Shown: positions 2,911 through 24,000 of the stretch, piece by piece
Position numbering within the stretch: position 1 is the first letter of the stretch
How the letters are laid out: each line of letters opens with the position of its first letter
Virus record (IMG/VR): IMGVR_UViG_2541047916_000002
DNA: 24,000 nucleotides
Origin: a virus
Taxonomy: Duplodnaviria > Heunggongvirae > Uroviricota > Caudoviricetes
Direction: 5' to 3' (one strand)
Program-made: the position numbers and the translations under genes
The notes under the pieces: model-generated
What the model saw: the letters and a program-made list of their open reading frames with translations, nothing else
Told to the model about the DNA's origin: nothing
The model's database searches: none

Positions 2911-2939
2911 GCCCTGGAGAAGGGCAATCGCTCTTTTAT
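2911..2939 (+). terminator. possible weak intrinsic terminator after int (GCCCT-GGAGA-AGGGC hairpin, then CTCTTTTAT)
   Basis: 5-bp stem hairpin with a T-rich tract 7 nt downstream; weak. Confidence 0.25.
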
Positions 2940-3886: not shown

Positions 3887-3898
3887 CGGAGACTGAAA

Positions 3899-5531: not shown

Positions 5532-5562
5532 GGAAGAATTCCCAGTACAAGGAGGCTGCCAC

Positions 5563-7228: not shown

Positions 7229-7238
7229 GGATGGAACC

Positions 7239-7580
7239 ATGATTACTAAAAATTTCCGACTGAATGCGCTGGCAAATAAGTATGCGTCGGCACTGTATAA
7301 CCACATTACCTCCACCAGCGGCGGGGACTATTTCATGGTTGATGCGGACGGCGAGGCCGTCCGTGTGGAAATCGTCAATGGAGTAAAAGGCGTTCGCAGC
7401 CTGATCGATAGCTACACACTGGCAGCCATGAAAGTGTTCTACCCGCAGTGGGAAACCGTGGGGATCGAGCTTCTTGATCGTTGCGTCACTAAGGACGGAT
7501 TGACTGACGTCGGGCGTGAGATATGGCAAAGCATGGTTAATGACATGGGCGCAACTGTAGCGGGAGGTTCTCATGCGTGA
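7239..7580 (+). CDS. hypothetical protein (113 aa)
   Basis: GAGGA SD; ORF track. Confidence 0.5.
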   Translation: MITKNFRLNALANKYASALYNHITSTSGGDYFMVDADGEAVRVEIVNGVKGVRSLIDSYTLAAMKVFYPQWETVGIELLDRCVTKDGLTDVGREIWQSMVNDMGATVAGGSHA

Positions 7581-7944
7581 AAATGCAGAAATGGCGCTTA
7601 GCTCCGCAATCGGAGAGCAGGTGGCAAAGATTGCTGGTGCTGTGTGGATTCATAACCTTCATTCTACTGGTGAAGAGAAAATGGCAATTCAGACGCCAGA
7701 GGGACGCACCATTACTACATCTCTGAAGCCGTCAGATGTTTGTGATCTGATTTGCGCATTCATGTACCCAGCAATGAGGACTGCCCACGGCGATAAGTGG
7801 AAACTTGCGACAACCGCTGAATTTGATATGTGGCTAAACAATGATGGCATGCTGACTGATTACGGAATAACCAAGTGGCAGATGCTGGTTAGCCATATCG
7901 CAAACGCTATAGACCACGTGGGGTACGGTGATGCGAAACATTGA
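7573..7944 (+). CDS. hypothetical protein (123 aa)
   Basis: GGGAGG SD; overlaps the upstream stop. Confidence 0.5.
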   Translation: MRENAEMALSSAIGEQVAKIAGAVWIHNLHSTGEEKMAIQTPEGRTITTSLKPSDVCDLICAFMYPAMRTAHGDKWKLATTAEFDMWLNNDGMLTDYGITKWQMLVSHIANAIDHVGYGDAKH

Positions 7945-10423
7945 TCTTATCCGTCAGGTTATCAGTGCGTCTGAAAACAACTGGCCTCATGTGCTGGGCT
8001 GCCTGAACATAAATGTCCCTGACTCTCCGCGCCGTCATGCTCCCTGCCCTGCATGTGGGGGCAAAGATCGATTCCGGTTCGATGACAACGGGCGCGGTAG
8101 CTTCATCTGTAATCAGTGCGGCGCTGGTGATGGGCTGGATTTAATTAAACGCGTAAATAACTGCGACACAACAGAGGCGGCGCTTCTTGCCGCTGATGTT
8201 CTGGGTATTGATTACCGGACAACGGAAACACCAGAAGCCACCAGCCAGAAACGGGAACAACTGGAAACCGAGCGCCAGCGACGCGAACAGGAGCGCCTGA
8301 AAAGGGCAGAGAAGGACGAACAACAAAGACGGGATACGTTTTCCCGTCAGTTTGATGACATGCGCAGAAAGGCTGTAAACGGCAAATCTGATTATCTGGT
8401 TGCGAAAGGGGTAGGTGATTTTACATTCCCCGTGTTGCCCGATGGATCTCTGTTGCTGGCGCTGGTGGATAAATCCGGCGCAGTAACAGCAGCACAGACT
8501 ATTACCTCACATGGTGAAAAAAGACTCCTGACAGGTTCAGCAAAGCGGGGGGCATATCACGCCATAAACGCACCAGAAACAACACAGAGCATCTTAATCG
8601 CAGAAGGGCTGGCAACGGCATTATCTGCCCATTTAATTCGTCCAGAGGCGCTGACAGTGGCGGCGATTGATGCCGGGAACCTGTTATATGTCGCCCAGGT
8701 ACTGCGGGATAAATTTCCTTCAGCACAAATCATCATTGCTGCGGATAACGACCACAGCGAAGGAAGACAAAACACGGGGAGAATAGCAGCAGAAAAAGCA
8801 GCTTTATCTGTTTCTGGATGGGTGGCATTACCCCCGACAGATCACAAAGCAGACTGGAATGATTACCACCAAAAACACGGCATTAAATGCGCCACAGAAG
8901 CGTTCAATAAGTCAATGTACCAACCACAGGGTAATGGCGTGAAACAGGAGCCACAGACCATTGAGGGAAGCGATTTTAAGGTTATGGATACCGACCCACT
9001 GAAACCAAGAATAGAAAGCCGCGAGGATGGTATTTATTGGGTATCTCCGAGAGCTGACAGCCAGAGTGGAGAAATCATCAATAACGAAAGCTGGTTATGT
9101 TCTCCGTTAAGCGTTATCGGTACTGGCAGAGACGATAAAGACCAGTATCTCATTCTTCGCTGGCTGTCGTTTGGTTCTGAAACGCCGACAACCGCTGCCA
9201 TTCCACTGGCTGATATTGGTGAACGTGAAGGATGGCGCACACTTAAAGCTGGTGGGGTAAATGTCACGACCAAAAGCAGCCTCAGAGCAATACTGGCAGA
9301 CTGGCTACAACGCAGTGGCTCTCGTGAATTGTGGCGTGTTGCTCATGCCACTGGCTGGCAATGCGGAGCGTACATCATGCCTGATGGGGAAATCATCGGA
9401 ACACCTGAAAATCCTGTGCTGTTCAGCGGGAGAAGCTCAGCCGCAGCCGGATATACCGTCTTAGGGAGCGCGAAAAGCTGGCGTGATAACGTGGCGCGTC
9501 TGGCCTTTGGTAACTATTCAATGATGACCGGGATCGGCGCAGCACTGGCAGCGCCATTGATTGGGCTGGTGGGCGCTGACGGGTTCGGCATTCATTTCTA
9601 TGAGCAGTCGAGCGCAGGTAAGACCACCACGGCAAACGTGGCGAGCAGCTTATACGGCAACCCTGATTTACTGCGGCTGACGTGGTACGGAACCGCGCTG
9701 GGGCTGGCAAATGAGGCCGCCGCCCACAATGACGGACTAATGCCGCTTGATGAAGTTGGTCAGGGCGCTGATCCTGTCAGCGTTTCACAGTCTGCCTATG
9801 CGTTATTTAACGGTGTAGGGAAACTGCAAGGCGCTAAAGATGGTGGAAACCGGGATCTAAAACGTTGGCGTACAGTGGCAATCAGCACCGGAGAAATGGA
9901 TTTAGAAACATTTATCGCTACTTCCGGGCGAAAAACCAAAGCCGGGCAACTGGTGCGACTGCTGAATATTCCGTTGAGTAAAGCAGTACGCTTTCACGAT
10001 TACCAGAACGGAAAACAGCACGCAGACGCACTGAAAGACGCTTACCAGCATCACCACGGCGCGTCCGGGCGTGAGTGGATTAAATGGCTGGCAGACCACC
10101 AGCAACAGGCTATTAAAACCGTTCGTGATTGCGAAAGCAGATGGAGAAGCCTGATCCCATCCGATTATGGTGAGCAGGTTCACCGTGTAGCCGCGCGATT
10201 TGCCATTCTGGAGGCCGCATTGTTGTTAGGCGAGGTTGTAACAGGCTGGGATGCTCAGACATGCCGTGATGCGATACAGCACAGCTATAACGCATGGTTG
10301 CGCGAGTTCGGCACAGGTAACAAAGAGCATCAGCAGATTATTGAACAAACGGAGGCATTTCTTAATGCCTATGGGCTTAGCCGTTTTGCACCATTTCCAT
10401 ACAGCCCGGCAGATTTGCCCATC
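7928..10423 (+). pseudogene. P4 alpha-like primase-helicase, N-terminal 832 codons, interrupted by an IS21-family insertion (the last two codons of the 833-aa ORF, 10424-10429, are IS-derived)
   Basis: Primase zinc ribbon (CPACGGKDRFRFDDNGRGSFICNQCGAGDG), Toprim (IAEG ... AADNDH), P-loop (SSAGKTT); the reading frame continues in frame at 12841 once the IS and one TSD copy are removed. Confidence 0.75.
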
Positions 10424-10488
10424 TATTAGACGTCAACTAGTTTTGCCGACTCGCGCCAACTATACTGGCCGCACCCTTCAGTGCGACA

Positions 10489-11244
10489 TCAAGTCGCGCT
10501 TGTTACTGCCTTCGCTGTCTTTTTCCTGTAGCTTTCACCTTTCAGTTCGAACATATATCCGTGATGGATCAGCCGGTCTGCCGCCGCCACCGCCATAGTC
10601 TCATCCACGAAGATGCTGCCCCACATGCTGAACGGATGGTTACTGGTTATCACCAGGCTCCCACGTTCATAGCGATGCGCTATTAACTCGAACAGTACTC
10701 CCGTTTCGGCGCTGTCGCGTTTGACATAGCCAAGATCATCCACCACTATCACCCGGTAGCGATCCAGTTTCAGTAGCAGCTCATTCAGTTTCAACTGCGC
10801 TCTGGCTTTACGTAGTTCCTGCAACAACTCTCCTGCGCTGTAGAACCGGGCCCGGTAGCCCTGGCCTACTACGCCATCCACGATCGCTGCCGCCAGATGG
10901 CTTTTCCCCAACCCGCTGGCTCCGAACAGCAGAACGTTTTCTCCTGCATCAACCCAGTCTGTCGTTTCACAGAGTTGCCGGAACTGAGCTCCATTCAGTT
11001 CCGGCACCTGACTGAAGTCGTATTCGCTTAGCGTTTTGGCAACTGGCAACCGGGCCTCCTTTTTATAACGACGCAGTTTTTCACTCTCGCGCCACAGGAG
11101 TTCTTCATTGCATAGCGTCAGAAGATAGCGCGATGGTGTCCAGCCTTCTGCCAGTGCTCGTTTTTCCAGAGCGTGCCATTCAGCTCCAACTCGTGTCAGG
11201 CGTAGTTTACGCAGGCTGCGTTCAAGGTGATGGATATTGCTCAC
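10489..11244 (-). CDS. istB: IS21-family ATP-binding helper IstB
   Basis: 251-aa ORF with Walker A GASGLGKSHLA; typical IstB size and position. Confidence 0.85.
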   Translation of the reverse strand: MSNIHHLERSLRKLRLTRVGAEWHALEKRALAEGWTPSRYLLTLCNEELLWRESEKLRRYKKEARLPVAKTLSEYDFSQVPELNGAQFRQLCETTDWVDAGENVLLFGASGLGKSHLAAAIVDGVVGQGYRARFYSAGELLQELRKARAQLKLNELLLKLDRYRVIVVDDLGYVKRDSAETGVLFELIAHRYERGSLVITSNHPFSMWGSIFVDETMAVAAADRLIHHGYMFELKGESYRKKTAKAVTSAT

Positions 11245-12740
11245 TGCGAACCTCCCTTGCCACGCAGTAGTTGCTCATAACTGCTCAGGTTATGCTGTTT
11301 CACATTGACTACCGGCAACGCCTTTTCCTTTATACCCAGGAAGCGCATCAGCCGGTGCAGATCCACGTTTCCCGGGGTATTCAGCATCTGCTCCATACCT
11401 TTTGCCACGACTGAGATATCGTCGTATCCTGCAGCCAGTTTCAGAGCATGTACCATCAGCCTGCCTGCCATGTCGGGTTCCAGATGATTACATAAGCGAC
11501 GCCACAGCCTCCGCCATTCATCGTCTGGCAGGATGTCATTTCTCAGCGTTGCATGGCAGAACGCACCGGGCTTTTTTGCCAGACTGTCGATCACATGTCG
11601 GAAGTCGATACGACGGGCCCGCGTCTTCCCTTTTTCTGGTCTGACACGTGGGCAGCTCATGACCTCGCTGCTGCCAACGTAACAGCTCAGACGATCGTCC
11701 CATAACCGGACCCGTAACAGTTGACCTACAAGCCGGGAAGGTACGCTGTAGACGACGTGCTTCACATTGATGGTACTGCTGCGGCTAACCCTCACAGTCA
11801 GCTCATCATAGTCAGCACTGCGACGAAGCGGCAGCGGTTTCAGATGAAGACGTTCTTCCTTGACCAGATCCTGATTGTTACGGTTGTGCCGCATAACCTG
11901 CTGAGTGATGAAGGCCTGATATTCTTCTATGGTGCTGAAGTCGTTACTGCCCCGCAGTATCAGCGCCTGACAGATACGCCTTTTCAGATGTCCGTGGGCA
12001 CTTTCAACCGAGCCATTTTCGTGGCCCCGACCGGCATTATTGTGTACGCCCTGCATTCCGTAGTGCTGACAGAGAGCAGCATAACGCTCAGTCAGCTCGC
12101 GGCGTCCATCTTCGCCCTGTTGTTTCCATGCTGCCCTCAGGCTGTCCGTTTTATGTTCTACCGGCACTCCGCCCAGTTGTCCGAGGGCTTCCTGCAGACC
12201 TTCAGCCAGAGCAGAGAAGCTCTCACCACCCAGCACAACCCGCATCCAGCTCCAGTGGCTCCATTCCAGACGGAAGTGATACAACTTATGCGCCAACAAC
12301 TTACCGGCGATGGTGACAACTACACCTTTCAGTTCAGTAAAGTCCGACAGACCTCGCAGACCGGGCTGATGTCGCTGGCGGAACATGACCTCCTGCTCTG
12401 CACCATACTGTAGCTTCCATTCGCGGACCCGCCGTTGCATTGTTCTTCGAAGGCTGTTGGGGTACTGGCCGGGATATTTATCCTGTAGCATCTCCAGCAG
12501 AGTTGTTGGTGTCAGAGCCGGCCTCTCTTTCAACAGAGGAACAAGCATGCTGTCCCACACAGCTTCCAGAGGATCTTTGCGTGTGCGCCAGTGCCGAACA
12601 CTGTTTTTTGCCCACTCTCCTTTTTCGATCCGACGACCAGAACGGACTGAGATACCAGCCTTCATGGCCGAGATATGCTGAGTTATACCTTTCTTACGCT
12701 GAGTCATATAGTAACTGACCTGAGAAGTATTGAGCGTCAC
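11241..12740 (-). CDS. istA: IS21-family transposase IstA
   Basis: 499-aa ORF with N-terminal HTH and a DDE-type core; 4-nt overlap with the downstream istB. Confidence 0.85.
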   Translation of the reverse strand: MTLNTSQVSYYMTQRKKGITQHISAMKAGISVRSGRRIEKGEWAKNSVRHWRTRKDPLEAVWDSMLVPLLKERPALTPTTLLEMLQDKYPGQYPNSLRRTMQRRVREWKLQYGAEQEVMFRQRHQPGLRGLSDFTELKGVVVTIAGKLLAHKLYHFRLEWSHWSWMRVVLGGESFSALAEGLQEALGQLGGVPVEHKTDSLRAAWKQQGEDGRRELTERYAALCQHYGMQGVHNNAGRGHENGSVESAHGHLKRRICQALILRGSNDFSTIEEYQAFITQQVMRHNRNNQDLVKEERLHLKPLPLRRSADYDELTVRVSRSSTINVKHVVYSVPSRLVGQLLRVRLWDDRLSCYVGSSEVMSCPRVRPEKGKTRARRIDFRHVIDSLAKKPGAFCHATLRNDILPDDEWRRLWRRLCNHLEPDMAGRLMVHALKLAAGYDDISVVAKGMEQMLNTPGNVDLHRLMRFLGIKEKALPVVNVKQHNLSSYEQLLRGKGGSQ

Positions 12741-12840
12741 GCCATTTCCTGTTGGATCATGTAAATGACACTCAGGTTACAAAACCGGCCAGAATAATCG
12801 GCGCCAGGCGGACTGAGTTATTGTCGTCTCATAGCCCATC

Positions 12841-13104
12841 AAAGATTTAGCCGGATACCGTCAGCGTGGAGAACATGACGAAAGCCCAATGATTTTCTAC
12901 ACATTCCCGGCCACATTTGAAAAGGAGATCGCATGTGGTTTCAACGCAAAACAGTTTGCTGAAGTGTTGAAAAAAGCCGGGATGCTAACCCCACCAAACA
13001 GCGGTCGTGGATACCAAAGAAAATCACCACGTATTCAGGGACGACAAATAAACGTTTATGTACTCAATTACCAGCCAGGAGATTATAACTCATCTGAAGA
13101 ATGA
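12841..13104 (+). pseudogene. C-terminal 87 codons of the IS-disrupted primase-helicase
   Basis: Open and in frame with the primase ORF across the restored junction (10423 joined to 12841); the ORF-track entry 12889-13104 is its ATG-started tail. Confidence 0.55.
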
Positions 13105-13129
13105 GCTTCTTCATGTGCGTAGAAAAGGT

Positions 13130-13240
13130 GTTGGTTCAGTTGGTTCAGTTGGTTCAATTTGTAAAGAGTATTGTTTTATAAGGATTTTATTCTTTTTATT
13201 GAACCAACACTGAACCAACAACACGGTATTTTGAACCAAC
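13130..13240. repeat. iteron cluster, putative island replication origin: 3x GTTGGTTCA, 43-bp AT-rich spacer, 3x TGAACCAAC
   Basis: Six 9-mers read directly, immediately downstream of the primase gene, as in P4/PICI-type ori arrangements. Confidence 0.55.
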
Positions 13241-13349
13241 ACAATGTGACTGAATTGATGCGCACAACACCTGGCTGGCATCAGAGAGTGTTTTACGAGA
13301 CTTTCGTAAAATCCTGTGTACAAGGGCGTGACGTTTTTGAAAGTGAGCA

Positions 13350-13366
13350 CTACGAAATTTTCGTAG
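13350..13366. promoter_or_regulatory. 17-bp palindrome CTACGAAATTTTCGTAG (putative protein-binding site)
   Basis: 8-bp arms around a central base; two related copies at 22149-22184. Confidence 0.3.
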
Positions 13367-13560
13367 TTCAAAAAACAGCCTCTGAGAAGTTGTTATGCCT
13401 GTTCAGCAAACCATCCGCATAGCTGATCGCGAATCAAATTACCAATGGAGCCAGAAGCAAGGGCAGAACTGAAAAGCGCCTGCCGTGAAGAGTAATGCGA
13501 CACCATAAATATAGTTTTTAGAGTCCATAAAAAACCTGTCAAAACCTGACACACAGAACG

Positions 13561-13593
13561 ATGCCACCAGCTACTGAGCGGTGGCATTTTTTT
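13561..13593 (+). terminator. intrinsic terminator (ATGCCACC-loop-GGTGGCAT followed by T7)
   Basis: 8-bp GC-rich stem plus a seven-T run; separates the ori region from the cargo module. Confidence 0.6.
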
Positions 13594-13688
13594 GTGCTAT
13601 TTGTTTCATATTTTGCAATTACGATGATGAATATTGCGATTTGTGAAACTATAATAACTGTTGTTTTATACAGTTCTAAGGGGGCGTT

Positions 13689-13850
13689 ATGGCTATTTCA
13701 GTAAAGCAGGTATTGATAAGTGAGAAGCAAATGGAAGCGATAAAGAAAATTCAGGAAGAGCAGCGTAAAAAATCAGGAATTGGAGTAGCGCCAACTCTGC
13801 ATGAAATTGCACGAGGGTTAATAGATAAGGCGCTGGCAGGCTGTATGTGA
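13689..13850 (+). CDS. small protein (53 aa), possibly a ribbon-helix-helix-type regulator
   Basis: Not in the ORF track (under 60 aa); AAGGGGG SD 5 nt upstream; TATAAT at 13650-13655; RHH assignment is a guess from size and predicted strand/helix pattern. Confidence 0.3.
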   Translation: MAISVKQVLISEKQMEAIKKIQEEQRKKSGIGVAPTLHEIARGLIDKALAGCM

Positions 13851-13866
13851 AAATGGATGGCATCGC

Positions 13867-14328
13867 ATGGAACTAAAATTTATTGATAACCCTGTGCGAT
13901 TACAGGCCTTTCTTAACGAGCCAGGCAATACCGAAAATATTGTTGAGCCGGGGCACACGTACTACATCAAGCCTGATGCGGTATATCTCGGCATCTACGA
14001 AGGATTAGTGCTGGCTGGCGTTCATGAAGTGCGTAACTTCTGGCATAGCGTTGTTGAATGCCATGCGGTGTACGACCCCGGATTCCGTGGTGAATATGCA
14101 CTGCAAGGGCATCGATTATTCTGCAAATGGCTTCTCGAAAACTCACCATTCCTTAACAGCATTACCATGGTTCCTGACACCACCAAATACGGACGGGCAA
14201 TTATCCGTTTGCTTGGCGCTACCCGTGTTGGTCACCTTGATGATGCTTATATCAGATGTGGTAAACCCGTCGGCGTAACGCTTTATCAGTTAACTCGGCA
14301 ACAATATAAGGAATTCAGCGAATGTTAA
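13867..14328 (+). CDS. hypothetical protein (153 aa), first gene of a virion-protein-like module (position equivalent to P22 gene 14)
   Basis: ORF translationally coupled to the next gene; no motif recognised. Confidence 0.45.
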   Translation: MELKFIDNPVRLQAFLNEPGNTENIVEPGHTYYIKPDAVYLGIYEGLVLAGVHEVRNFWHSVVECHAVYDPGFRGEYALQGHRLFCKWLLENSPFLNSITMVPDTTKYGRAIIRLLGATRVGHLDDAYIRCGKPVGVTLYQLTRQQYKEFSEC

Positions 14329-14975
14329 TTACCCACATAGCTCATAAACATCTCAATCGTGCCGTATACGAAAAAGGCGGTGATGGTGGTGCCTCTAAAG
14401 CTCAGGCGAAGGCCCAGCAGCAGGCAATTGATTTGCAGCGCGAGCAGTGGAATACGGTGATGAATAATCTCAAGCCGTATGCAGAAGTCGGATTGCCTGC
14501 TTTACAACAACTACAAGGACTGATGACTCTGGAAGGGCAGAATAAAGCCGCGAATGATTTCTTTGGTTCTGGTTTATATAAAACACAGGCAGATCAGGCC
14601 CGTTATCAGAACCTTGTCTCAGCAGAAGCTACCGGGGGGCTTGGCTCAACAGCTACCAGTAACCAGTTATCTTCCATTGCGCCCATGCTTTATAACAATT
14701 GGCTTAGTGGGCAAATGCAAAATTATGGAAACCTGCTAAATGTCGGGATGAATGCGGCATCAGGGCAGGCAACAGCAGGGCAACTCTTGCAGGGGCTTGG
14801 CGCTATTCGTGCAGGTCAGGCGCAGCAGCCATCCAGTCTTGCGCGTGGTATTGGTGGGGCGGCATCAGGCGCTTTAGCGGGTGCGCAACTTGGTTCCGTT
14901 GTTCCGGGTATAGGTAATGTCGCCGGGGCTATTGGTGGTGGGCTTATTGGTCTTGTTGGGGGGCTTGGATTCTAA
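14322..14975 (+). CDS. ejection-protein-like, P22 gp7-type (217 aa) with Gly-rich hydrophobic C-terminus
   Basis: Size, Q/A-rich composition, C-terminal glycine-zipper-like segment and gene order (217/473/701 aa versus P22 gp7/gp20/gp16 at roughly 229/471/609 aa); homology not verified. Confidence 0.45.
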   Translation: MLITHIAHKHLNRAVYEKGGDGGASKAQAKAQQQAIDLQREQWNTVMNNLKPYAEVGLPALQQLQGLMTLEGQNKAANDFFGSGLYKTQADQARYQNLVSAEATGGLGSTATSNQLSSIAPMLYNNWLSGQMQNYGNLLNVGMNAASGQATAGQLLQGLGAIRAGQAQQPSSLARGIGGAASGALAGAQLGSVVPGIGNVAGAIGGGLIGLVGGLGF

Positions 14976-16396
14976 TGGCGACATGGCAACTTGGCGGGCT
15001 GCCTAGCATGGCACCGCAAAATGATAATGCTCCTCGTTCTTCCGTTCCTCAGCCTGTGCAGTATCAGCAGCAGCCAAACGTAGGTTTAATGGCGCTACAG
15101 GGGCTAAGAGGCGTTGCTGAGATTAATCAGCAGGCACGTCAACAACAGCGTAAAGCAGAGTTTCAGAAAGCATATGCCGGGGCTTTTGAGTCTGGAGACA
15201 GAAACAAAATGCGCAGTCTTATTTCTGAGTATCCAGAAGAATTTGAAAGCGTTCAGAAAGGGATGGGCTTTATTGATGACGACCAGAGAAATTCTATTGG
15301 TCATCTTGCGACTAGTGCTCAAATCGCATCTTCGCTCGGAACTGGGGCATTTGGAAAATTCATAGCAGATAACGAAGATGAAATGCGTCGCTTGGGAATT
15401 TCTCCTGAGTCTGTTGCCGAAATGCATGTTAATGATCCACAGGGATTCCAGCGGCTTGCTGGTAGTATGGCACTGTTTTCTCTCGGTCATGAGAAGTATT
15501 TCGATATCAAAGATCAAATGGAAGGTCGGGATATTGAGCGTGGCAAGTTGGCAGAAACAATCCGCAGCAATCAGGCTGGCGAAGCACTTCAGGCGAGAGG
15601 GCAGGATATTAGCCGAGCAAATGCGTTAACGTCAGCATATGCACCAACAGCAGCAATGCAGAATTACAATCAGTACGCTCAAATGTTAAAGGCGGATCCA
15701 GAGGGGGCGGCGGCATTTGCGGCAGCGGCTGGAATTAATACAAACGCCAAAAAATTAATGAGTGTTAGAGAAAACGATGATGGCACTGTCACAAAATACT
15801 ACACAGACGGAAGTGAAGAGCAGGGAAAACTAAACCAGCCAATATCTGGAGATGGGTTTCGTCCAATAGCTTTGCCAACAGCCCAAAAGATCATGGAAAA
15901 GTCGCCAGAAGGGGCTAAAAAAGCTGCTGGATTTGCATACAGGGTTAGGGATGCTCTTGATTCAATAGATACACTGAAAGACCAGCTTAGCCCACAGCGA
16001 GTGGCGATCATTAATAATGCTTTGGGTAATGGGACGCTGGCTAACTTAACGCTCAGCCCAATAGAGCAGCAATACGTTGTTAATGCTAATGACGCAATAA
16101 TGGCAATACTCCGTCAGGAAACAGGGGCATCTATCCTACCAGCTGAAATGTCCAAATATTATCAAATGTATTTCCCTCAGCCTGGTGATTCCACAAAAAC
16201 CATTGATACCAAGCGCCGGAAGATGGAAAACCAGTTCAATTCGCTGAAAGCTGCTTCTGGTCGAGCTTATGATGCTTTGCGGGTTATTTCAGCAGTTGAC
16301 AGAGGAACTTCTTCTTCGTCGCAGACATTGCCGCAATCTGAGCAGGTATCACAGCCAGCAGCCAGCAGTAATTTTTCTTCACTATGGGGTGATTAA
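14975..16396 (+). CDS. ejection-protein-like, P22 gp20-type (473 aa)
   Basis: TAATG coupling to the upstream gene; Q/A-rich low-complexity protein of matching size and order. Confidence 0.45.
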   Translation: MATWQLGGLPSMAPQNDNAPRSSVPQPVQYQQQPNVGLMALQGLRGVAEINQQARQQQRKAEFQKAYAGAFESGDRNKMRSLISEYPEEFESVQKGMGFIDDDQRNSIGHLATSAQIASSLGTGAFGKFIADNEDEMRRLGISPESVAEMHVNDPQGFQRLAGSMALFSLGHEKYFDIKDQMEGRDIERGKLAETIRSNQAGEALQARGQDISRANALTSAYAPTAAMQNYNQYAQMLKADPEGAAAFAAAAGINTNAKKLMSVRENDDGTVTKYYTDGSEEQGKLNQPISGDGFRPIALPTAQKIMEKSPEGAKKAAGFAYRVRDALDSIDTLKDQLSPQRVAIINNALGNGTLANLTLSPIEQQYVVNANDAIMAILRQETGASILPAEMSKYYQMYFPQPGDSTKTIDTKRRKMENQFNSLKAASGRAYDALRVISAVDRGTSSSSQTLPQSEQVSQPAASSNFSSLWGD

Positions 16397-18501
16397 TGGC
16401 TAAAGCATGGAAAGATGTTATCGCTTCTCCACAGTATCAGGCGTTAGCACCAGAACAAAAAGCGCAGGCTCAAGAGCAATACTTCAATGAAGTCGTGGCC
16501 CCGCAAGCCGGAGAAAGTGTAGAGCAGGCTAAGCAGGCTTTTTATGCTGCCTATCCACTACCATCAACGAATGAAATAGACCGATCCCAATCAGCAACTC
16601 AAAATATTCAACATACATCATCTGATAATTCTCTTGCGTCAGGGTATGCAAAGTTAGCTACTCAGCAAAGAGAGGGGCTTGAGCGTTCAGCAGAACAGGG
16701 AGCCAGTCTTGGGGCTGCGATGCGCGATGCTATAACAGGCGAAAGCCGAATGACTCCAGAGATGGAGAGACTGCAAAATGTCGCCTCTGCCCCAGAATTG
16801 AACTCACTAAGCATGGATGCCCTAAAGGCTGGATGGTCTCAACTTTTCGGCTCTGACGCGTCTCAGGAAAAGATTCTTCAGGGAATGGGGGCGACATTAA
16901 GGCAGGATGAGAAGGGGAATACTATCGTTTCTCTGCCATCAGGTGATTATGCCCTGAACAAGCCGGGTTTATCACCGCAAGACCTGACTTCGTTTCTTGC
17001 TAATGCGTTGGCGTTTACACCAGCGGGCAGGGCTGGAACGGTGCTTGGTGCCATAGGAAAATCAGCAGCTACAGATTTAGCACTACAGGGAGCCACCAGC
17101 CTTGCTGGTGGAGAAGATATTGATCCGTTACAAACGGTAATTTCTGCTGGCATTGGTGGTATTGGTAAGGGGCTGGAAAATACAGCGAGTGCGGTTTCGA
17201 GGGCTGTTCGTGGTGATATGTCGCCTGAAGCAAAGGCTGCTGTCGACTTTGCATCGGAAAGAAATCTGCCGTTAATGACCAGTGACATGCTGAAAGATAA
17301 AACCTTTATGCAGAGTCAGGCTCAGACATTAGGCGAAAGAGTTCCTTTTTTTGGAACCGGTAAGAATCGGCTGAATCAACAACAAGCACGAGAAAATTTA
17401 GTCAGAACATTTAGCGATGGTCTGGGTGGCATTTCTGATAAACAGCTTTATGAATCTGCGACTAAAGGGCAACAAAAATTCATTGAGGCAGCAGGAAAGC
17501 GATATAACCGCATAATTGACGCTATGGGGGATACCCCTGTCGATCTCTCAAACACGGTAAAAGCTATCGACAATCAGATTGCCGTGTTAAGCCGCCCGGG
17601 CAAATCTCAGGATAGAGCCGCGGTAAAAGTCTTGCAGCAATTTAAAGACGATATCACCAGCGGACCAAATGACCTGCGTCTGGCGAGGGAAAACAGAACC
17701 GATCTTCGAAAGCGATTTATGGCGTCATCTGACACTGTTGATAAAGATACGCTCCAGAAAGCCAGCGATATTATCTACAAGGCATATACGGCGGATATGA
17801 AAAAAGCCGTAGCCAAAAATCTTGGAGCAGACGAAGCCATTAATATGGCAAGGGTTGATCGCTCATGGTCTAAATTCAATGACATGATGGGAAGAACGCG
17901 CGTTCAAAAGGCAATAGCCAGCGGCAAGGCCACGCCTGAGGATGTAACAAAACTCGTTTTTAGCCAAAGCCCATCAGAACGTTCTCAGCTTTACAGGCTT
18001 CTGGATGACAATGGTAGGCAAAACGCACGAGCGGCCATAGTTCAGAATGCTGTAGATAAGGCGACTGATCCGTCTGGAAATATCAGTGTTGAGAAGTTTA
18101 TTAATGCGTTACACCGGAACAGGAAGCAATCAGCAACTTTCTTTAAAGGCGTACATGGAAAGGAACTGGACGGCGTTATTAAATACCTCAACGATACAAG
18201 ACACGCGGCAAAAGCGAACGTTCAAAACTTAAATGGTCAGCAGCTTTATGGATTGTTAGTTGGTGGTGGCATCATAAACGCAGCAGTATTAGCGGGGATG
18301 CTAAAAACGGCTGCGTTTGTTGTTCCTGCTGCTGGTGCCGTAGGCGGAGCAGCGAAGGCATACGAAAGCCCTGTTATACGAAATGCCTTGTTACGTCTGG
18401 CAAATACGCCAAAAGGTAGCACAGCATATGACAGAGCGATCAGTACGGTCACACAATCGCTCACCAGAGTCGCACAGGCATCACAAAAAGAAGCTCAATA
18501 A
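16396..18501 (+). CDS. ejection-protein-like, P22 gp16-type (701 aa)
   Basis: TAATG coupling; hydrophobic Gly/Ala-rich C-terminal segment; position and size. Confidence 0.45.
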   Translation: MAKAWKDVIASPQYQALAPEQKAQAQEQYFNEVVAPQAGESVEQAKQAFYAAYPLPSTNEIDRSQSATQNIQHTSSDNSLASGYAKLATQQREGLERSAEQGASLGAAMRDAITGESRMTPEMERLQNVASAPELNSLSMDALKAGWSQLFGSDASQEKILQGMGATLRQDEKGNTIVSLPSGDYALNKPGLSPQDLTSFLANALAFTPAGRAGTVLGAIGKSAATDLALQGATSLAGGEDIDPLQTVISAGIGGIGKGLENTASAVSRAVRGDMSPEAKAAVDFASERNLPLMTSDMLKDKTFMQSQAQTLGERVPFFGTGKNRLNQQQARENLVRTFSDGLGGISDKQLYESATKGQQKFIEAAGKRYNRIIDAMGDTPVDLSNTVKAIDNQIAVLSRPGKSQDRAAVKVLQQFKDDITSGPNDLRLARENRTDLRKRFMASSDTVDKDTLQKASDIIYKAYTADMKKAVAKNLGADEAINMARVDRSWSKFNDMMGRTRVQKAIASGKATPEDVTKLVFSQSPSERSQLYRLLDDNGRQNARAAIVQNAVDKATDPSGNISVEKFINALHRNRKQSATFFKGVHGKELDGVIKYLNDTRHAAKANVQNLNGQQLYGLLVGGGIINAAVLAGMLKTAAFVVPAAGAVGGAAKAYESPVIRNALLRLANTPKGSTAYDRAISTVTQSLTRVAQASQKEAQ

Positions 18502-18519: not shown

Positions 18520-18939
18520 CTAATTTTTGTTCTTTGCTCTCATCCACAGGTAAAGAAGGGCAAGAACAAGACAAAAAACAGAGAATAGATAACCTACCTC
18601 ATATGATGCGCCAAAAAAATTAGCTATTGATACGGGCAAAAAAGCTGAAGCGATCAAAATTGAAAGGCAAAAAATAAGACCAGTAATATAGTTTATTAAA
18701 TTCTTAAATGAGAAACGTTTTGCTTGATTTATGGTCTTAGCGAACGATCGCTTAACGACGGATAAAAGCAAATAGATGGCGACAGTTGCTAATGCCCCTT
18801 TCCACCAGTCTGGATATAGTTTTGCGACAATCAGACCAAGGAAAACCATGATGACAGCCTGAGCATTCACACCAACCCTCCCTTTAGCGTTGTTTAGATT
18901 GGCAATCATCATATATCCAAGACATGGCATTTGGTACAT
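18520..18939 (-). CDS. small inner-membrane protein (about 139 aa, 4 predicted TM helices), in the position of a superinfection-exclusion gene (sieA-like by synteny only)
   Basis: Four hydrophobic helices in the translation; convergent with and 18 bp from the gp16-like gene; start uncertain (track ORF extends to 19107 with a TTG start). Confidence 0.45.
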   Translation of the reverse strand: MYQMPCLGYMMIANLNNAKGRVGVNAQAVIMVFLGLIVAKLYPDWWKGALATVAIYLLLSVVKRSFAKTINQAKRFSFKNLINYITGLIFCLSILIASAFLPVSIANFFGASYEVGYLFSVFCLVLALLYLWMRAKNKN

Positions 18940-19701
18940 AGCTTGGGTCGGGATTTCAAATCCGCCCCCGTTGATGGGGTCGTTACAGTACGCGCATATC
19001 CGCTTTATGTGAAACAGGAAGATTTTTCTGATATCACTGCCACAGCAAAACACCAATTTCGAGACAAGTACGCGCGCGAGGGGTATCAGTTGCAAAAAAT
19101 TTTGCAACTACGTCCGACCAATACACACACGATGGCGGGGGATACCATAAAACTGTTCTCTACATGAGACAGAGTGGTGGTGATGTGTTGATTATCGGCC
19201 TATATGCGCACAGGACGCGCTATGACAATGTTTTATGCGGGTACACCAATCACATGTATCTGGTGTGATAAATCGCGTTACATGACCTTTCATGTTGTGC
19301 TGGTGGTTATCACGACGTTCTGAATCTGGCTTTTGTCTGATATTTTGCGACAAGTACGCGCGCGTAACATCGAAATTATCGGATGGCGTATGTTGCTGGC
19401 AAGATAAAGTCGGCGTAATACAAAGGCGTTACTTGATAGCAGCAAGATTACAACAATGGTTGTTGAATTTGAGCGATGTAAGGAATTGATTTAGGGAGGC
19501 GCTGATGGCTAAAAAGTTCCACTACCAGCGGATGAATGCGCCAGCGATGGCCGTTTGGTAGTAAAAGAGGAGCCATTCCTCAATCAGTTGAATACATTAT
19601 GCCAACTAAATGGGTGGGGGCACTGTGTGGGTATTCAGCGGTGACGGTATTTTTTAAGCCAAGGACTATCCGTAGCAGGGGGACTCATTTTGAAATATTT
19701 A

Positions 19702-20139
19702 TCATATGTAACTTATTATTTTAGATAAAGATTTCCAGTTAAAGAAAAAAGTTATCATTGATATAATCAAATATGCCCCTGCGAGTAGCAGGGCATAATA
19801 ATCCAGAGGCAGATTGCTGACAACAGGGGCAAACATCGAGATCATTGCTAATAGGCAGGCTGTGATCAGCGTAGTTCCTGTATCAAAAAGCCCCTCAATA
19901 ATGCCTTTTAGTACTCCGTTACTTTTTAGAGCGCCTACAATTCCCTTTGAACTATCAAAGCTACTTAGCATGGTGACTGATGCCAAAACAAAACCAAAGA
20001 GAACTCCAGAAATAGTTGAAAGAGCACCAGCAGCCGAAATGACAGCATTGTGATCTAGGTCGTGTAATAAATGGGCACCAGCAATAGCCATAGCTAGAGC
20101 AAACAATGACTTGGCAGCAAACAATTTCCGAGAACTCAT
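19702..20139 (-). CDS. 4-TM membrane protein (145 aa), second gene of a two-gene AT-rich operon
   Basis: Four hydrophobic segments; 12-nt gap from the upstream 361-aa gene; long ORF in AT-rich DNA. Confidence 0.6.
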   Translation of the reverse strand: MSSRKLFAAKSLFALAMAIAGAHLLHDLDHNAVISAAGALSTISGVLFGFVLASVTMLSSFDSSKGIVGALKSNGVLKGIIEGLFDTGTTLITACLLAMISMFAPVVSNLPLDYYALLLAGAYLIISMITFFFNWKSLSKIISYI

Positions 20140-20151
20140 AATGTATTCCTG

Positions 20152-21237
20152 TTACGTTTGACTAACCAAATAGTACTGGGTTAGATACCTAAGGTTGTCA
20201 TTCTTTGCTTGTAGCATAGCATTTTTAACGTCAGTATCGGTCGGATACCCATCTGCTTGGATAGGCACCATCTTCTTTACCGTAAGAACTTCGTCTACAA
20301 GACTTTTCTTCTTTTTATCGCCCTGAGCAACAACATTTGCTTTCTCAAAAGTTAAACGACCATCACCACCAGGGAACTTTTCTAGCATCTCCTTAAGGCT
20401 TTTTTTAACGTCATCCTCAAGCCATCCCTTTGCTTTTCTTTTTAATGGAGAATGTCCGCGTAACGAAATAGTCAGGTGGCTTGAACTGGTGCCTCTGATC
20501 ATCTCAATCATCTGATTCGCGAACATTCCATCGAGTTGATACTGTGCGGCATTGAAGTTTCTTGGGATGGCCACAGAAATCTCGCAGCTTCTTAGATTGG
20601 ATCCAGTTTCGAGTAGTTCTTTGATGCTTTCTTCTTTCCAAATGGCTTCAAAAGAAACAGGGACTCCGCGATCACTGGAGTTGAAAAGAAGGAAGGCTAA
20701 GTCACTATGGCGTGGACCTAAATGATTTAAAGACAATACTAGAATGTCTGTCTGAGGATAATAAATAAAGTATGTACGTTCTGAAAGAGTCTTTGCCCCG
20801 GCTAGAGGGATTTTCTCTTCCACCCACTCTTTATCTGTAATATATGCCAGTGTTGCGCTTTTTCTTCTTCGAGACATGAATCCGAAGTAGGAGCCATCCT
20901 CGGGTGAGATGTCTAGAAAATGAATTTTAAGTTCTCTTTCACCAAAGTCTGCATAGTGGGTCATCTTGAAGTCTTTAGAACACCGATCATACAGATTTTT
21001 AAAGGCCTCTGCGGTTAACCCCTTGTTACTAGTGCGAATATTCTCAGAGCTTGTGTAAAAGCCCACCCTTACAGATTTCAAACTTTGATCTTTTGGTGCC
21101 ACAGTCATTTGAGCTCCATTGTACTCTGCGATAGTTTTTGCACACCTTGAAATCAAAATCTCCATGTCAGTCACGAGAAAATAACTATGGATGAAACCCA
21201 TCAAAGGCATTGAATACAGGTGGCTTTTGAGAATCAT
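20152..21237 (-). CDS. hypothetical soluble protein (361 aa), no recognisable domain; first gene of the candidate defense operon
   Basis: Uninterrupted 361-codon ORF in AT-rich sequence where chance ORFs of this length are very unlikely; operon partner is a 4-TM protein. Confidence 0.6.
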   Translation of the reverse strand: MILKSHLYSMPLMGFIHSYFLVTDMEILISRCAKTIAEYNGAQMTVAPKDQSLKSVRVGFYTSSENIRTSNKGLTAEAFKNLYDRCSKDFKMTHYADFGERELKIHFLDISPEDGSYFGFMSRRRKSATLAYITDKEWVEEKIPLAGAKTLSERTYFIYYPQTDILVLSLNHLGPRHSDLAFLLFNSSDRGVPVSFEAIWKEESIKELLETGSNLRSCEISVAIPRNFNAAQYQLDGMFANQMIEMIRGTSSSHLTISLRGHSPLKRKAKGWLEDDVKKSLKEMLEKFPGGDGRLTFEKANVVAQGDKKKKSLVDEVLTVKKMVPIQADGYPTDTDVKNAMLQAKNDNLRYLTQYYLVSQT

Positions 21238-21588
21238 CCTAACCTGGTGACGGTGGTTCGCATATCCTGATGGATGATCAGTGATTAATCAATGCGCCAA
21301 GCAGATGTGTCTATGTGTTTGTTAATCATTGCATGACAGTAGATCGACATGGGAGATCACGTTATATAGTTGAATTGTTAGGATATCCATGCACCGATCA
21401 ACTGACTAGGCTGATGTGCTTTTTAGCAGGTGCCATATAGTAGTTAGGCGGTTCTGTGAAATGATTACTGTTCCAGCATAACTGCGGCATAAAGCGGTGC
21501 TATATAAGCTATTTGCTGGCGGATTTAGTCTTCACCGTTCATATATGTAGTGACTATTTGACAGAGTGTTAGTTCACGGACACTTTTT

Positions 21589-21688
21589 GTTGGTTCAAAA
21601 TGAGTTGATGTTGGTTCAATATTTTAGAAAAAACACAATAAAAACAACGCTCTTTACAAATTGAACCAACTGAACCAACTGAACCAAC
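21589..21688. repeat. second iteron cluster (2x GTTGGTTCA, AT-rich spacer, 3x TGAACCAAC), inverted relative to 13130-13240
   Basis: Reverse complement of 21646-21691 is identical to 13124-13169 (46 bp: AAAAGGTGTTGGTTCAGTTGGTTCAGTTGGTTCAATTTGTAAAGAG), then about 80 percent similar. Confidence 0.5.
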
Positions 21689-21724
21689 ACCTTTTTGCTT
21701 ATCTATATAATCTGAGAGGCAGAA

Positions 21725-22012
21725 ATGATAAGGGACAGGAAAGCTGAAGAGCTGGAGTCAAAAGGGCTATACCGGAGAGCTGCCGCACGATGGGCAGAAG
21801 TCATGATGCTGGCAAATGGCGATAAAGAACGTGAACATGCAGCAAACAGGCGCTCTGAATGTATCCGTAAGGCGGCACGCCCACCAGCAACTACAGACAG
21901 ATTCGGAGATTTAAGACAGGCAGTTAAGCGAACTCATTCGGCTCTTGGTATGGATGAGGAAGCGAGAGGGTACTTCAGGCGTTATCGCGATAAAGATTGC
22001 CAGAGACAGTAA
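21725..22012 (+). CDS. PerC-family transcriptional activator-like protein (95 aa)
   Basis: Motif AEELESKGLYRRAAARWAEVM...REHAANRRSECI resembles the PerC family pattern; GAGAGG SD. Confidence 0.55.
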   Translation: MIRDRKAEELESKGLYRRAAARWAEVMMLANGDKEREHAANRRSECIRKAARPPATTDRFGDLRQAVKRTHSALGMDEEARGYFRRYRDKDCQRQ

Positions 22013-22701: not shown

Positions 22702-23040
22702 GTGAAACTCAATGCCCGTCAAATAGACACTGCCAAGCCAAAAGAGAAGGCTTACAAGTTGGCTGATGGTGGTGGTCTGTACCTCCTGGTAAAACCTGGT
22801 GGAGGAGAATATTGGCGTCTCAAGTATCGTGTAGCTGGTAAAGAGAAGCTGTTAGCACTAGGTGTGTATCCTGAGGTCACCTTAGCTGATGCTCCTGCAA
22901 AACTTGAAGAAGCTAAAAGAGGTATCTCTGGGGGAATCGATCTGATGGAAGTGAAGCGAGAGGAAAAGATTGCCCGGGAAACGCAGTTAAACAACACCTT
23001 CAAAGATATTGCCCTTGAGTGGCACAGTAACAAATTATAA
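22702..23040 (+). pseudogene. truncated second copy of the P4-type integrase (112 codons, about 90 percent identical to the N-terminus of the 1610 gene), remnant of a tandem island
   Basis: Near-identical N-terminal 112 aa and upstream region; homology ends abruptly at 23037 and the sequence becomes AT-rich. Confidence 0.7.
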
Positions 23041-23278
23041 TCACAATAATAGTGTATATAATTATACATTGTATGCTTGGTAATCATATAATGATAAAAG
23101 CTTCCGATAATCAGTATGAGATTTGTCCTTAAACTCCTGGACATGCTTTTCTAAATCTTCCAATGGTATATGTCCATTTATACAAATAAAATTCTAGTGA
23201 TAAATACCTTCAGGTATGATTAGACAACATCTTTATTCGATGGGGGTTAATCTATATTTGATATCTTTCTTTTAAATA

Positions 23279-23320
23279 ACAACGCCATTAAAAACGCTTT
23301 GTTTAATGACGTTTTTTTTA
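23279..23320 (+). terminator. possible intrinsic terminator (AACGCCATTAAA-loop-TTTAATGACGTT followed by T8)
   Basis: 12-bp stem with one mismatch followed by a T-run. Confidence 0.3.
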
Positions 23321-23475
23321 TTGTTTCCTATATAAAGCCTAACCAGCATAAACATTGGTGGCTCTTATGCTCATTGTAATTAAATGAGAGTGTGATTAAT
23401 GTCTTTATATATTCTGGTAGTTATTCTCTCCAGAAGAATACATTGTAAGAAGATGACTGTTAGTATGTTTTAACA

Positions 23476-24000
23476 TCAATTAACATTAAGGTTTGATAAT
23501 AATTTTTTGTTGGCGAGTTCAAATGTTTTCATTTCATCATCTGATAGCCCGCTCCAGATTTTCTTTAGCATTACATTTTGAGTGTTTATTAGTTTTTGAG
23601 CAAGTGTAACTCCGTCAGGGGTTAAGCAAATACTTTTGCTTCGACGATCGTTTTTATTATTAATTCTTTTGGCAATATTCTTTTTTTCTAATTTGTCTAT
23701 GATGTGTGTGATGTTTGTTTTGGAGAATTGTAACTCCTTGTAAATATCAGAAGGGGACTGACAATAATCATCAGACATATATAATGAAACTAACACCATA
23801 AATGTTGAGGTGTTTATTCTATACTCGCTCAATTCATTTTCTATAATACTCTGGATTTTGTCATTTACTCTAATATATAAGTGTATTAACAGACTCTCCT
23901 GAGCCGGGTATGCCGGATTTTTGATTTTTTTGTAGTTTGTTATAGTTTTTAATAAATCTATATTATTCATAATTCCACCACACGGCAAAAGAAAACTCAT
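23476..24000 (-). CDS. MarR-family winged-helix transcriptional regulator (PapX/SlyA-like), start at or near the window edge
   Basis: Winged-HTH region (SPSDIYKELQFSKTNITHIIDKLEKKNIAKRINNKNDRRSKSICLTPDG); AT-rich gene; the ORF reaches the window end, true start may be the internal Met near 23970. Confidence 0.55.
   Translation of the reverse strand: MSFLLPCGGIMNNIDLLKTITNYKKIKNPAYPAQESLLIHLYIRVNDKIQSIIENELSEYRINTSTFMVLVSLYMSDDYCQSPSDIYKELQFSKTNITHIIDKLEKKNIAKRINNKNDRRSKSICLTPDGVTLAQKLINTQNVMLKKIWSGLSDDEMKTFELANKKLLSNLNVN

What the first reader, a model, noticed from the sequence alone, without database searches (positions are those of the whole stretch)
19702..21237. AT-rich two-gene operon (361-aa soluble protein plus 145-aa 4-TM protein): candidate undescribed Rex-like anti-phage system
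Two tightly linked minus-strand genes (12-nt gap) sit in the island cargo in DNA that is visibly more AT-rich than the flanking island genes. The architecture is a larger cytoplasmic protein with no recognisable catalytic motif followed by a roughly 145-aa protein with four TM helices, which parallels lambda RexA (279 aa)/RexB (144 aa, 4 TM) and other sensor-plus-membrane-effector abortive infection pairs. Satellite and prophage cargo hotspots are established locations for defense systems. I recognise no known family in either protein.
Basis: partly seen in the sequence, partly recalled or inferred. Interest (0 to 1): 0.75.

Follow-up and report, generated by a model that had tools for sequence, protein, structure and literature searches.

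The report
Divergent RexAB-like phage defence gene pair
These two unannotated E. coli genes are very distant relatives of phage lambda's classic RexA/RexB exclusion system (a DNA-binding sensor plus a membrane protein that shuts down infected cells), so this is a hidden member of a known kind of anti-phage defence, not a new kind.

Summary
Two co-directional minus-strand genes, 12 nt apart, encode a soluble protein (most likely 318 aa from M44, not 361) and a 145-aa four-helix membrane protein. They lie in AT-richer cargo of the E. coli thrW island. Pfam, NCBIfam, PADLOC and RefSeq give no function.

The genes are inseparable in 80 of 80 viral loci (39-100% identity). They move between prophage accessory-gene slots, including, twice, the cI-downstream slot that rexAB occupies in lambda.

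"Undescribed" is doubtful. Sucellos (SclA/SclB, 2024) is a validated RexAB-like system that the Rex Pfam models miss and that is common in Salmonella prophages. It is probably this family, but I could not obtain its sequences to confirm.

Most likely function: abortive-infection or exclusion defence, with a DNA-binding sensor activating a membrane effector. Function is inferred, not tested.

The parts
20152..21108 (-). rexA-like gene (DUF6731 clade), 318 aa from M44. The maximal ORF extends to 21237 (361 aa), but the extension is probably untranslated leader.
19702..20139 (-). rexB-like gene: 145-aa, 4-TM, N-in/C-in membrane protein, the putative effector.
   Evidence: ORF. Hydropathy. PHROG 8552 at 2.2e-53. 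Family invariants H30, T42, LFGF47-50, C95, W135. hhalign against RexB: 92%, P 6.7e-7, window 10-99 with RexB 15-103. Intermediates hit both HMMs, with clean shuffle controls.
20140..20151 (-). 12-nt intergenic spacer with the AGGA ribosome-binding site for the small gene, implying translational linkage in one operon.
   Evidence: Sequence CAGGAATACATTATG. Spacing of -20 to +88 nt is conserved in 80/80 loci.
21109..21724 (-). Upstream, divergent intergenic region shared with perC. It presumably holds the operon's promoter (not identified) and contains the GTTGGTTCA repeat cluster at 21589-21688.
   Evidence: 39% GC. No consensus sigma-70 site found on the minus strand here. Repeats.
19567..19581 (-). 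Terminator-like hairpin plus T-run about 120 nt downstream of the small gene. A weak candidate.
   Evidence: The number of such sites in the region is no more than chance (2 found against 1.8 expected).

Best explanation
The pair is a divergent RexAB-type two-gene phage exclusion (abortive infection) module carried as accessory cargo of the thrW island.

Shown here: the 318-aa cytoplasmic protein is a remote homolog of lambda RexA (RexA/RdgC fold; Pfam DUF6731 clade). The 145-aa protein is a remote homolog of RexB with the same 4-TM, N-in/C-in topology. The two genes form an inseparable operon that hops between prophage and satellite accessory-gene slots.

Inferred from lambda Rex, P. putida RexABpp and Sucellos: the basic RexA-like protein (pI 8.9), probably a DNA-binding dimer, senses a phage-specific DNA or protein-DNA intermediate early in infection. 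It then activates the RexB-like membrane protein, probably an oligomeric pore or channel. That protein depolarises or permeabilises the inner membrane, which arrests or kills the infected cell before phage progeny are made. The pair is most likely a member of the family recently named Sucellos (SclA/SclB).

For: Sequence, large protein: a DUF6731 profile (127 sequences, 108 matching PF20505) against a RexA profile (24 PF15969 proteins) gives hhalign 89.1%, P 2.2e-6 over 253 collinear columns (window 14-313 with RexA 2-271). The two share a GPxxSDLxxFL motif. Reversed and block-shuffled controls score 11-25, against 48.5 for the real comparison.

Sequence, small protein: partners of distant DUF6731 genes hit both this small-protein HMM (2e-23 to 4e-10) and the RexB HMM (22.8, 22.6 and 16.8 bits). 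Controls: 600 shuffles per sequence reach at most 10.4 bits, reversed sequences at most 2.8, and unrelated membrane proteins at most 1.2. The full partner profile against RexB gives 92%, P 6.7e-7 over 86 columns, with controls at most 20.5. TM cores and positive-inside charges superimpose on RexB.

Synteny: the order is A then B, as in lambda. Linkage is 80/80 across 39-100% identity, and RexA loci show the same, 25/25.

Context: 64 of 80 viral loci sit in the Q-holin accessory-gene slot. The pair follows cI in the cro<-|->cI->A->B arrangement in L009 and L031. It lies at prophage ends next to dinI and next to the integrase in small marine prophages.

Against: There is no functional test of this copy or of any close relative.

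HMMER-level models do not see the relationship: Pfam RexA/RexB, PADLOC RexA/RexB and a PDB hmmsearch with the deep profile are all negative. Shallow profiles are also non-significant.

The hhalign probabilities (89% and 92%) are below the customary 95%. The AF2 model is of moderate confidence. The small-protein model is poor (pLDDT 59) and gave no structural match.

No promoter was identified upstream.

In one characterised Rex-like system (Butters gp30/gp31) the roles are reversed, so the sensor and effector assignment is not guaranteed. Lambda RexA also has a non-defence role in the lysis-lysogeny switch.

Identity with Sucellos could not be checked at sequence level.
Confidence: 0.75

Rival explanations
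1. It is a Rex-type pair with reversed logic, as in mycobacteriophage Butters gp30/gp31. The cytosolic RexA-like protein is the toxic antiviral effector, and the membrane protein merely sequesters it until infection releases it.
For: One of the five characterised Rex-like systems works this way (PMC12894663). Nothing in the sequence fixes the direction of control.
Against: Lambda, Sbash, CarolAnn, P. putida and Sucellos all use the membrane protein as effector. The most conserved part shared with RexB is TM2, the loop and TM3, which suggests a conserved membrane activity rather than a simple anchor.
Confidence: 0.1
2. It is primarily a prophage lifecycle module, not a defence system. The RexA-like DNA-binding protein modulates the lysogeny-lysis switch, as reported for lambda RexA, and the membrane partner is accessory.
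For: Lambda RexA binds DNA and biases the switch toward lytic growth (bioRxiv 10.1101/2021.04.19.439022 and PMC11077077). Two relatives sit directly behind cI.
Against: Most copies (64/80) lie far from the immunity region, antisense between Q and the holin gene. Others lie at prophage ends or in a thrW island with no CI/Cro switch. The obligate 100% linkage to the membrane protein fits a two-component effector system better.
Confidence: 0.07
3. It is a superinfection-exclusion or lysis-timing membrane function unrelated to Rex. It could be a SieA-like block of DNA entry (the window copy lies just after P22-type ejection-protein genes) or a holin/antiholin-type accessory (many copies abut lysis cassettes). 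On this reading the RexA and RexB similarities are convergent or spurious.
For: Position after the gp16-like gene in the window and next to holin and endolysin genes in lambdoid phages. The HMMER-level Rex models are negative.
Against: Two independent components each show remote homology to their Rex counterpart, with clean controls, and structure gives the same answer. The pair is transcribed antisense to the lysis operon and relocates independently of it. Holins from the same loci score at most 1.2 bits against either small-protein HMM.
Confidence: 0.05
4. It is a decaying passenger with no current function in this island.
For: No promoter was recognised. The island carries an IS21 insertion and pseudogenes in other strains. 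Some viral loci have shortened large ORFs.
Against: Both ORFs are intact and at least 99% identical in 42 E. coli genomes. The family shows strong purifying conservation, with 60 invariant columns across 43-91% identity, and the ribosome-binding sites are intact.
Confidence: 0.03

Closest known systems
Phage lambda RexA/RexB exclusion system (Pfam PF15969/PF15968; PDB 8TWQ)
   Different: Sequence identity is about 14% or less, and neither protein reaches the Pfam or PADLOC Rex models. The large protein is about 40 aa longer (318 against 279). The window copy is in a thrW island, not behind cI, and most relatives sit between Q and the holin gene. The trigger and phage range are unknown.
Sucellos (SclA/SclB), Vibrio cholerae superintegron cassette 68 (bioRxiv 10.1101/2024.07.02.601686)
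   Same: [quoted passage not shown] Both genes are required, the phenotype is abortive, and SclB is predicted to form a transmembrane pore. Outside integrons it is found in prophages, 'often in Salmonella'. The family studied here has Vibrio, Shewanella and Pseudoalteromonas members and a Salmonella member seen on at least 1000 contigs.
   Different: Sequence-level identity with SclA/SclB could not be tested, because no sequences or HMMs were available to me. If it is the same family, the window pair is an E. coli thrW-island member, probably well diverged from the Vibrio prototype (the Vibrio homolog I do have is 29% identical).
Pseudomonas putida RexABpp (PP_5643/PP_5644; PMC12894663)
   Different: Its relationship to DUF6731 is untested. 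HHpred found no RexB link for PP_5644, whereas a RexB link is shown here through intermediates.
Actinobacteriophage Rex-like pairs (Sbash gp30/31, CarolAnn gp44/43, Butters gp30/31)
   Same: A cytosolic RexA-like, DNA-binding dimer plus a membrane partner, prophage-expressed, giving heterotypic defence.
   Different: The A proteins are larger (337-372 aa). The hosts are Gram-positive. Gene order is inverted in some. The Butters system has reversed effector logic. No detectable BLAST similarity to the window proteins.
RdgC (recombination-associated DNA-binding ring dimer, PDB 2OWL)
   Different: It is a housekeeping protein with no membrane partner, and the similarity is much weaker than to RexA.

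Membership tests
RexAB (lambda-type) | Large subunit has the RexA two-domain fold | tested here: met
RexAB (lambda-type) | Large subunit matches the curated RexA HMM (Pfam PF15969 / PADLOC RexA) | tested here: not met
   No hit at E <= 1. The PADLOC RexA model does detect lambda RexA at 9e-110 but not DUF6731 proteins.
RexAB (lambda-type) | Remote (profile-profile) homology of the large subunit to RexA | tested here: met
   hhalign 89.1%, P 2.2e-6, 253 collinear columns. Controls score at most 25.3, against 48.5 for the real comparison. Shallow profiles are not significant.
RexAB (lambda-type) | Adjacent downstream partner of about 144 aa with 4 TM helices (RexB-like topology) | tested here: met
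   145 aa. TM cores 10-19, 39-55, 86-102 and 117-128, against RexB 11-23, 51-63, 86-104 and 119-133, with the same positive-inside pattern. Linkage 80/80.
RexAB (lambda-type) | Small subunit matches the curated RexB HMM (Pfam PF15968 / PADLOC RexB) | tested here: not met
   No hit.
RexAB (lambda-type) | Remote homology of the small subunit to RexB | tested here: met
   Inconclusive on its own (48.7%). With intermediates it reaches 92.0%, P 6.7e-7. The intermediates hit the RexB HMM at 16.8-22.8 bits, against at most 10.4 in 1800 shuffles.
RexAB (lambda-type) | Located downstream of the cI repressor and co-transcribed in the lysogen | tested here: inconclusive
   Not so in the window, which is a thrW island with perC divergent. 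It is so for relatives L009 and L031. Most relatives are in the Q-holin slot.
RexAB (lambda-type) | Both genes required for exclusion; RexA overexpression triggers RexB-dependent depolarisation; RexA is a DNA-binding dimer | not testable with these tools
   Needs wet-lab assays.
Sucellos (SclA/SclB) | Two-gene RexAB-like architecture without a Pfam Rex match | tested here: met
   compared with the description.
Sucellos (SclA/SclB) | Sequence homology to V. cholerae SclA/SclB, or a hit by the DefenseFinder Sucellos HMMs | not testable with these tools
   No sequences or HMMs were available.
Sucellos (SclA/SclB) | Taxonomic and contextual distribution (Vibrio integrons; prophages, often in Salmonella; satellites) | tested here: inconclusive
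   Consistent but circumstantial. The Salmonella cluster member P0252 is on at least 1000 contigs and the same cluster holds an E. cloacae member. There are Vibrio, Shewanella and Pseudoalteromonas members. Compare.
Pfam DUF6731 (PF20505) | Protein scores above the PF20505 gathering threshold | tested here: not met
   The window protein and its 91%-identical homolog give no PF20505 hit.
Pfam DUF6731 (PF20505) | Homologous to bona fide PF20505 proteins | tested here: met
   Homologs at 43-49% identity score 31-45 bits, above the cut-off of 27. A profile seeded on the window protein retrieves 133 clusters, and 108 of 127 aligned members hit PF20505. RefSeq labels the cdtI-type variant DUF6731.
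Kiwa (KwaA 4-TM + KwaB DUF4868), considered as an analog only | KwaB DUF4868 domain, or PADLOC Kiwa models | tested here: not met
   No Pfam or PADLOC hit. As I recall, the gene order is the opposite of Kiwa's.

The most novel reading that the evidence does not exclude
DUF6731 plus its 4-TM partner may be a deep, formally unrecognised branch of a Rex superfamily that unites lambda RexAB, Sucellos and possibly P. putida RexABpp. On this reading the E. coli/enterobacterial 313-323-aa subclade in this window is a distinct, untested lineage (not what DefenseFinder calls Sucellos) with its own trigger. It travels as a self-contained cassette between at least five mobile-element slots: downstream of cI, between Q and the holin gene, prophage end next to dinI, next to the integrase, and thrW-island cargo.
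Probability: 0.25. Interest if true: 0.5.

Novelty: new member of a known kind. Interest (0 to 1): 0.4.

Why it matters
It gives a probable function to two genes that RefSeq calls hypothetical. About 2% of complete E. coli genomes carry this pair or the cdtI-type variant, and a related version is common in Salmonella.

It also gives a functional hypothesis to Pfam DUF6731. It shows that RexB, which earlier analyses of the P. putida system could not link to its partner, can be connected through intermediate sequences.

The results suggest that lambda's 70-year-old Rex system is one twig of a wider, highly mobile superfamily that PADLOC v2.0.0 and Pfam miss. The many natural variants in different genomic slots offer comparative material for the still unsolved question of what RexA senses.

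The kind of system and its likely mechanism are already known, so the advance is incremental.

Tried and rejected
**Direct family scans.** Pfam, NCBIfam, PADLOC and PDB phmmer/hmmsearch gave nothing for either window protein.

**Shallow profile comparisons.** These were non-significant against lambda RexA and RexB. The first partner-against-RexB comparison was inconclusive, and one block-shuffled control scored as high, so that control design was replaced.

**Small-protein structure.** The AF2 model was poor (pLDDT 59) and its BFVD search was uninformative. afdb50 was unavailable. BFVD with the large model returned only uncharacterised phage proteins and RdgC.

**Attempts to obtain Sucellos sequences or identifiers.** All failed. 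The UniRef label 'DUF4747' on the Salmonella homolog was not reproduced by Pfam.

**Other searches.** The genome-contig scan found only 3 loci. The A5 alignment was too divergent for the locus finder. The promoter scan found no convincing site upstream, and terminator-like sites were at chance level.

**Readings rejected.**
- Kiwa-like: no DUF4868 or PADLOC hit.
- TubZ-like_C (E 0.026) and DUF2649 (E 0.082): sub-threshold noise.
- Holin or SieA-like: the negative controls.

Full report
**1. Observation**

The two minus-strand ORFs are present exactly as described: 20152-21237 (361 aa maximal) and 19702-20139 (145 aa), separated by 12 nt that carry an AGGA ribosome-binding site.

The large gene most likely starts at M44 (window 21108; 318 aa). 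M44 has a GGAG 5 nt upstream and M1 has none. RefSeq uses M44 (WP_001528727.1). PHROG 7651 and every homolog (309-323 aa) align from about residue 46.

The pair is AT-richer (40.8% GC) than the neighbouring ejection-protein genes (47.6%). The whole 18.5-23 kb cargo segment is 42.3%, so this is a regional property.

Hydropathy gives four hydrophobic segments in the small protein, the first borderline. A low-confidence AF2 model shows matching long helices.

**2. Where the window comes from**

The window is the thrW (tRNA-Thr) island next to proA in E. coli. It is at least 99% identical across this segment in 42 of 5,426 complete genomes, for example ABU 83972, and both genes are annotated 'hypothetical protein'.

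In order, the island carries:
- a P4-type integrase, an HTH gene, AntA/B, Ash and a TOPRIM/DUF927 primase, which here is interrupted by an IS21-family element;
- P22-type gp14/gp7/gp20/gp16 homologs;
- an orphan membrane ORF;
- the pair, with a divergent perC gene;
- an integrase remnant, then MarR and vat.

**3. First-pass annotation**

Pfam, NCBIfam, PADLOC v2.0.0 and PDB sequence searches recognise neither protein. Both fall in PHROG families of unknown function. No paper in the library mentions DUF6731 or the protein accessions.

**4. The pair is a mobile, inseparable module**

tblastn finds both genes, adjacent and in the same order, in the same five phage records at 33-44% identity.

In 80 IMG/VR loci carrying relatives of the large gene (39-100% identity), all 80 have a 145-157-aa, roughly 4-TM ORF starting -20 to +88 nt downstream.

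Contexts differ:
- 64 of 80 loci abut a Q antiterminator gene convergently, lying antisense between Q and the lysis cassette.
- Rahnella and Salmonella copies lie at a prophage end next to dinI-like genes; in Salmonella this is beside pepN.
- Vibrio and Pseudoalteromonas copies lie beside the integrase of small prophages.
- In L009 and L031 the pair directly follows a CI-type repressor, in a cro<-|->cI->A->B arrangement. In L031 the CI is 60% identical to lambda CI. This is the precise position of rexA-rexB in lambda.

**5. The large protein is a remote RexA homolog**

More distant homologs (43-49% identity) carry Pfam DUF6731. An exhaustive profile search found only 133 clusters at 50% identity among 1.84 billion representatives, and 108 of 127 aligned members hit PF20505.

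At sequence level, shallow profiles were not significant, but they already aligned a shared GPxxSDLxxFL block. The deep DUF6731 profile against a 24-sequence RexA profile gave 89.1% probability, P 2.2e-6 and score 48.5 over 253 collinear columns, spanning window 14-313 and RexA 2-271. Reversed and block-shuffled controls scored 11-25 over short fragments.

Both proteins are basic, with pI 8.9 for the window protein and 8.6 for RexA.

**6. The small protein is a remote RexB homolog**

Direct comparison of the partner family with a RexB family taken from 25 rexA loci was only suggestive (48.7%), and one control scored as high, so I counted it as inconclusive.

Family-averaged hydropathy and charge profiles superimpose. 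TM cores are 10-19, 39-55, 86-102 and 117-128 for the partner, against 11-23, 51-63, 86-104 and 119-133 for RexB. In both, the N-terminus, the TM2-TM3 loop and the C-terminus are basic.

The decisive step came from partners of distant 'core' DUF6731 genes, from a Shewanella-type contig, a metagenome contig and a Magnetococcus MAG. These hit the window's small-protein HMM (E 2e-23 to 4e-10) and also the RexB HMM (22.8, 22.6 and 16.8 bits). Controls were far lower:
- composition shuffles: at most 8.4 bits;
- shuffles preserving TM positions: at most 10.4 bits;
- reversed sequences: at most 2.8 bits;
- unrelated membrane proteins: at most 1.2 bits.

With these intermediates in the profile, hhalign against RexB gave 92.0%, P 6.7e-7 and score 44.9 over 86 columns, pairing window 10-99 with RexB 15-103. 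Controls scored at most 20.5. Shared features are a His before TM2, the TM2 small-residue motif and a K-x-x-G-(Y/V) loop.

One sampled core DUF6731 gene (L127/L128) instead has an 86-aa two-TM ORF 185 nt downstream, so the architecture is not universal across the whole DUF family.

**7. Prior art**

PADLOC's RexA and RexB models find the lambda proteins (9e-110 and 9e-61) but not this family.

That count omits Sucellos (SclA/SclB) from the V. cholerae superintegron. [quoted passage not shown] Both genes are required, the phenotype is abortive, SclB is predicted to form a pore, and a phage anti-defence protein was identified. Outside integrons it occurs in prophages 'often in Salmonella'. DefenseFinder now reports Sucellos in about 98% of S. 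Enteritidis PT1/PT4 isolates and in an E. cloacae satellite.

The family studied here has Vibrio, Shewanella and Pseudoalteromonas members. It also has a Salmonella homolog 61% identical to the window protein, one member of which is on at least 1000 contigs and shares its 90% cluster with an E. cloacae protein.

I therefore think the window pair probably belongs to the Sucellos family. I estimate about 70%, as an inference. I could not obtain SclA/SclB sequences or HMMs to test it.

**8. Mechanism**

Shown: homology of both components to RexA and RexB, the operon structure, the topology, the mobility and the accessory-gene contexts.

Inferred from the characterised relatives: the RexA-like protein, probably a DNA-binding dimer, detects a phage replication or recombination intermediate or a phage protein. 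It then activates the RexB-like oligomer, which depolarises or permeabilises the membrane and aborts the infection.

Rivals, all less likely, are Butters-type reversed logic, a lysis-lysogeny switch role, a non-Rex membrane function, and decay. They are scored in the rival explanations section.

**9. Verdict**

'Rex-like' is correct and is real homology. 'Undescribed' is doubtful.

This is a new, unannotated member of a known kind of system. It adds the points that DUF6731 belongs to the RexA superfamily and that its partners link to RexB. The finding is of moderate interest.

Noticed in passing
window 13130-13240 and 21589-21688: The 9-mer GTTGGTTCA occurs 11 times in the window against 0.16 expected. 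The copies form two clusters of inverted tandem arrays. One lies just downstream of the primase gene and upstream of the gp14-like gene. The other lies 37-136 nt upstream of perC and about 480-580 nt upstream of the rexA-like gene. They are candidate iterons or operators for an island-encoded regulator.
   Followed up: partly
window 10489-12740 (-): An IS21-family element (IstA 499 aa, IstB 251 aa) is inserted in the TOPRIM/DUF927 primase gene. The primase is 833 aa here, against 918 aa in ABU 83972, which lacks the insertion.
   Followed up: partly
window 1610-18501: The island combines satellite-type functions with P22-type gp14/gp7/gp20/gp16 (ejection-protein) homologs, but has no capsid, portal, terminase or tail genes. 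The satellite-type functions are a P4-type integrase at thrW, HTH, AntA/B, Ash and a TOPRIM/DUF927 primase. This may be a satellite that supplies its own ejection proteins, or a mosaic remnant.
   Followed up: partly
window 18520-18909 (-) (maximal ORF to 19107): An orphan membrane protein (129 aa in RefSeq, WP_042025458.1; 38% GC) lies directly after the gp16-like gene. As I recall, sieA occupies that position in P22. It has no Pfam, PADLOC, PHROG or phage tblastn match.
   Followed up: partly
window 21725-22012 (+); also L039, L042, L053 and others at about +3.4 kb: A PerC-family regulator (Pfam 3e-33) is transcribed divergently from the pair. PerC homologs also recur about 3.4-3.8 kb from the pair in 13 of the lambdoid viral loci.
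   Followed up: no
window 22702-24000: An integrase fragment with only the Arm DNA-binding domain (22702-23040) marks a junction with a second island module (MarR regulator, then vat in ABU 83972). GC drops to 29-31% at 23001-24000.
   Followed up: no
L056, L060, L062, L071-L073 (viral loci): In several lambdoid loci the large gene's ORF is shortened (109 or 237 aa) while the small gene stays intact. This could be pseudogenisation or frameshifts of the RexA-like component.
   Followed up: no
L005:3792-4085: An Acb2/Tad1-hairpin family gene (an anti-CBASS/Thoeris sponge family) sits in the same late-region accessory cluster as the pair in one E. coli prophage contig.
   Followed up: no
L127/L128:4052-4312: One distant core DUF6731 gene is followed at +185 nt by an 86-aa two-TM ORF instead of a roughly 145-aa 4-TM partner. 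This could be a variant or a degenerate architecture within the DUF family.
   Followed up: no
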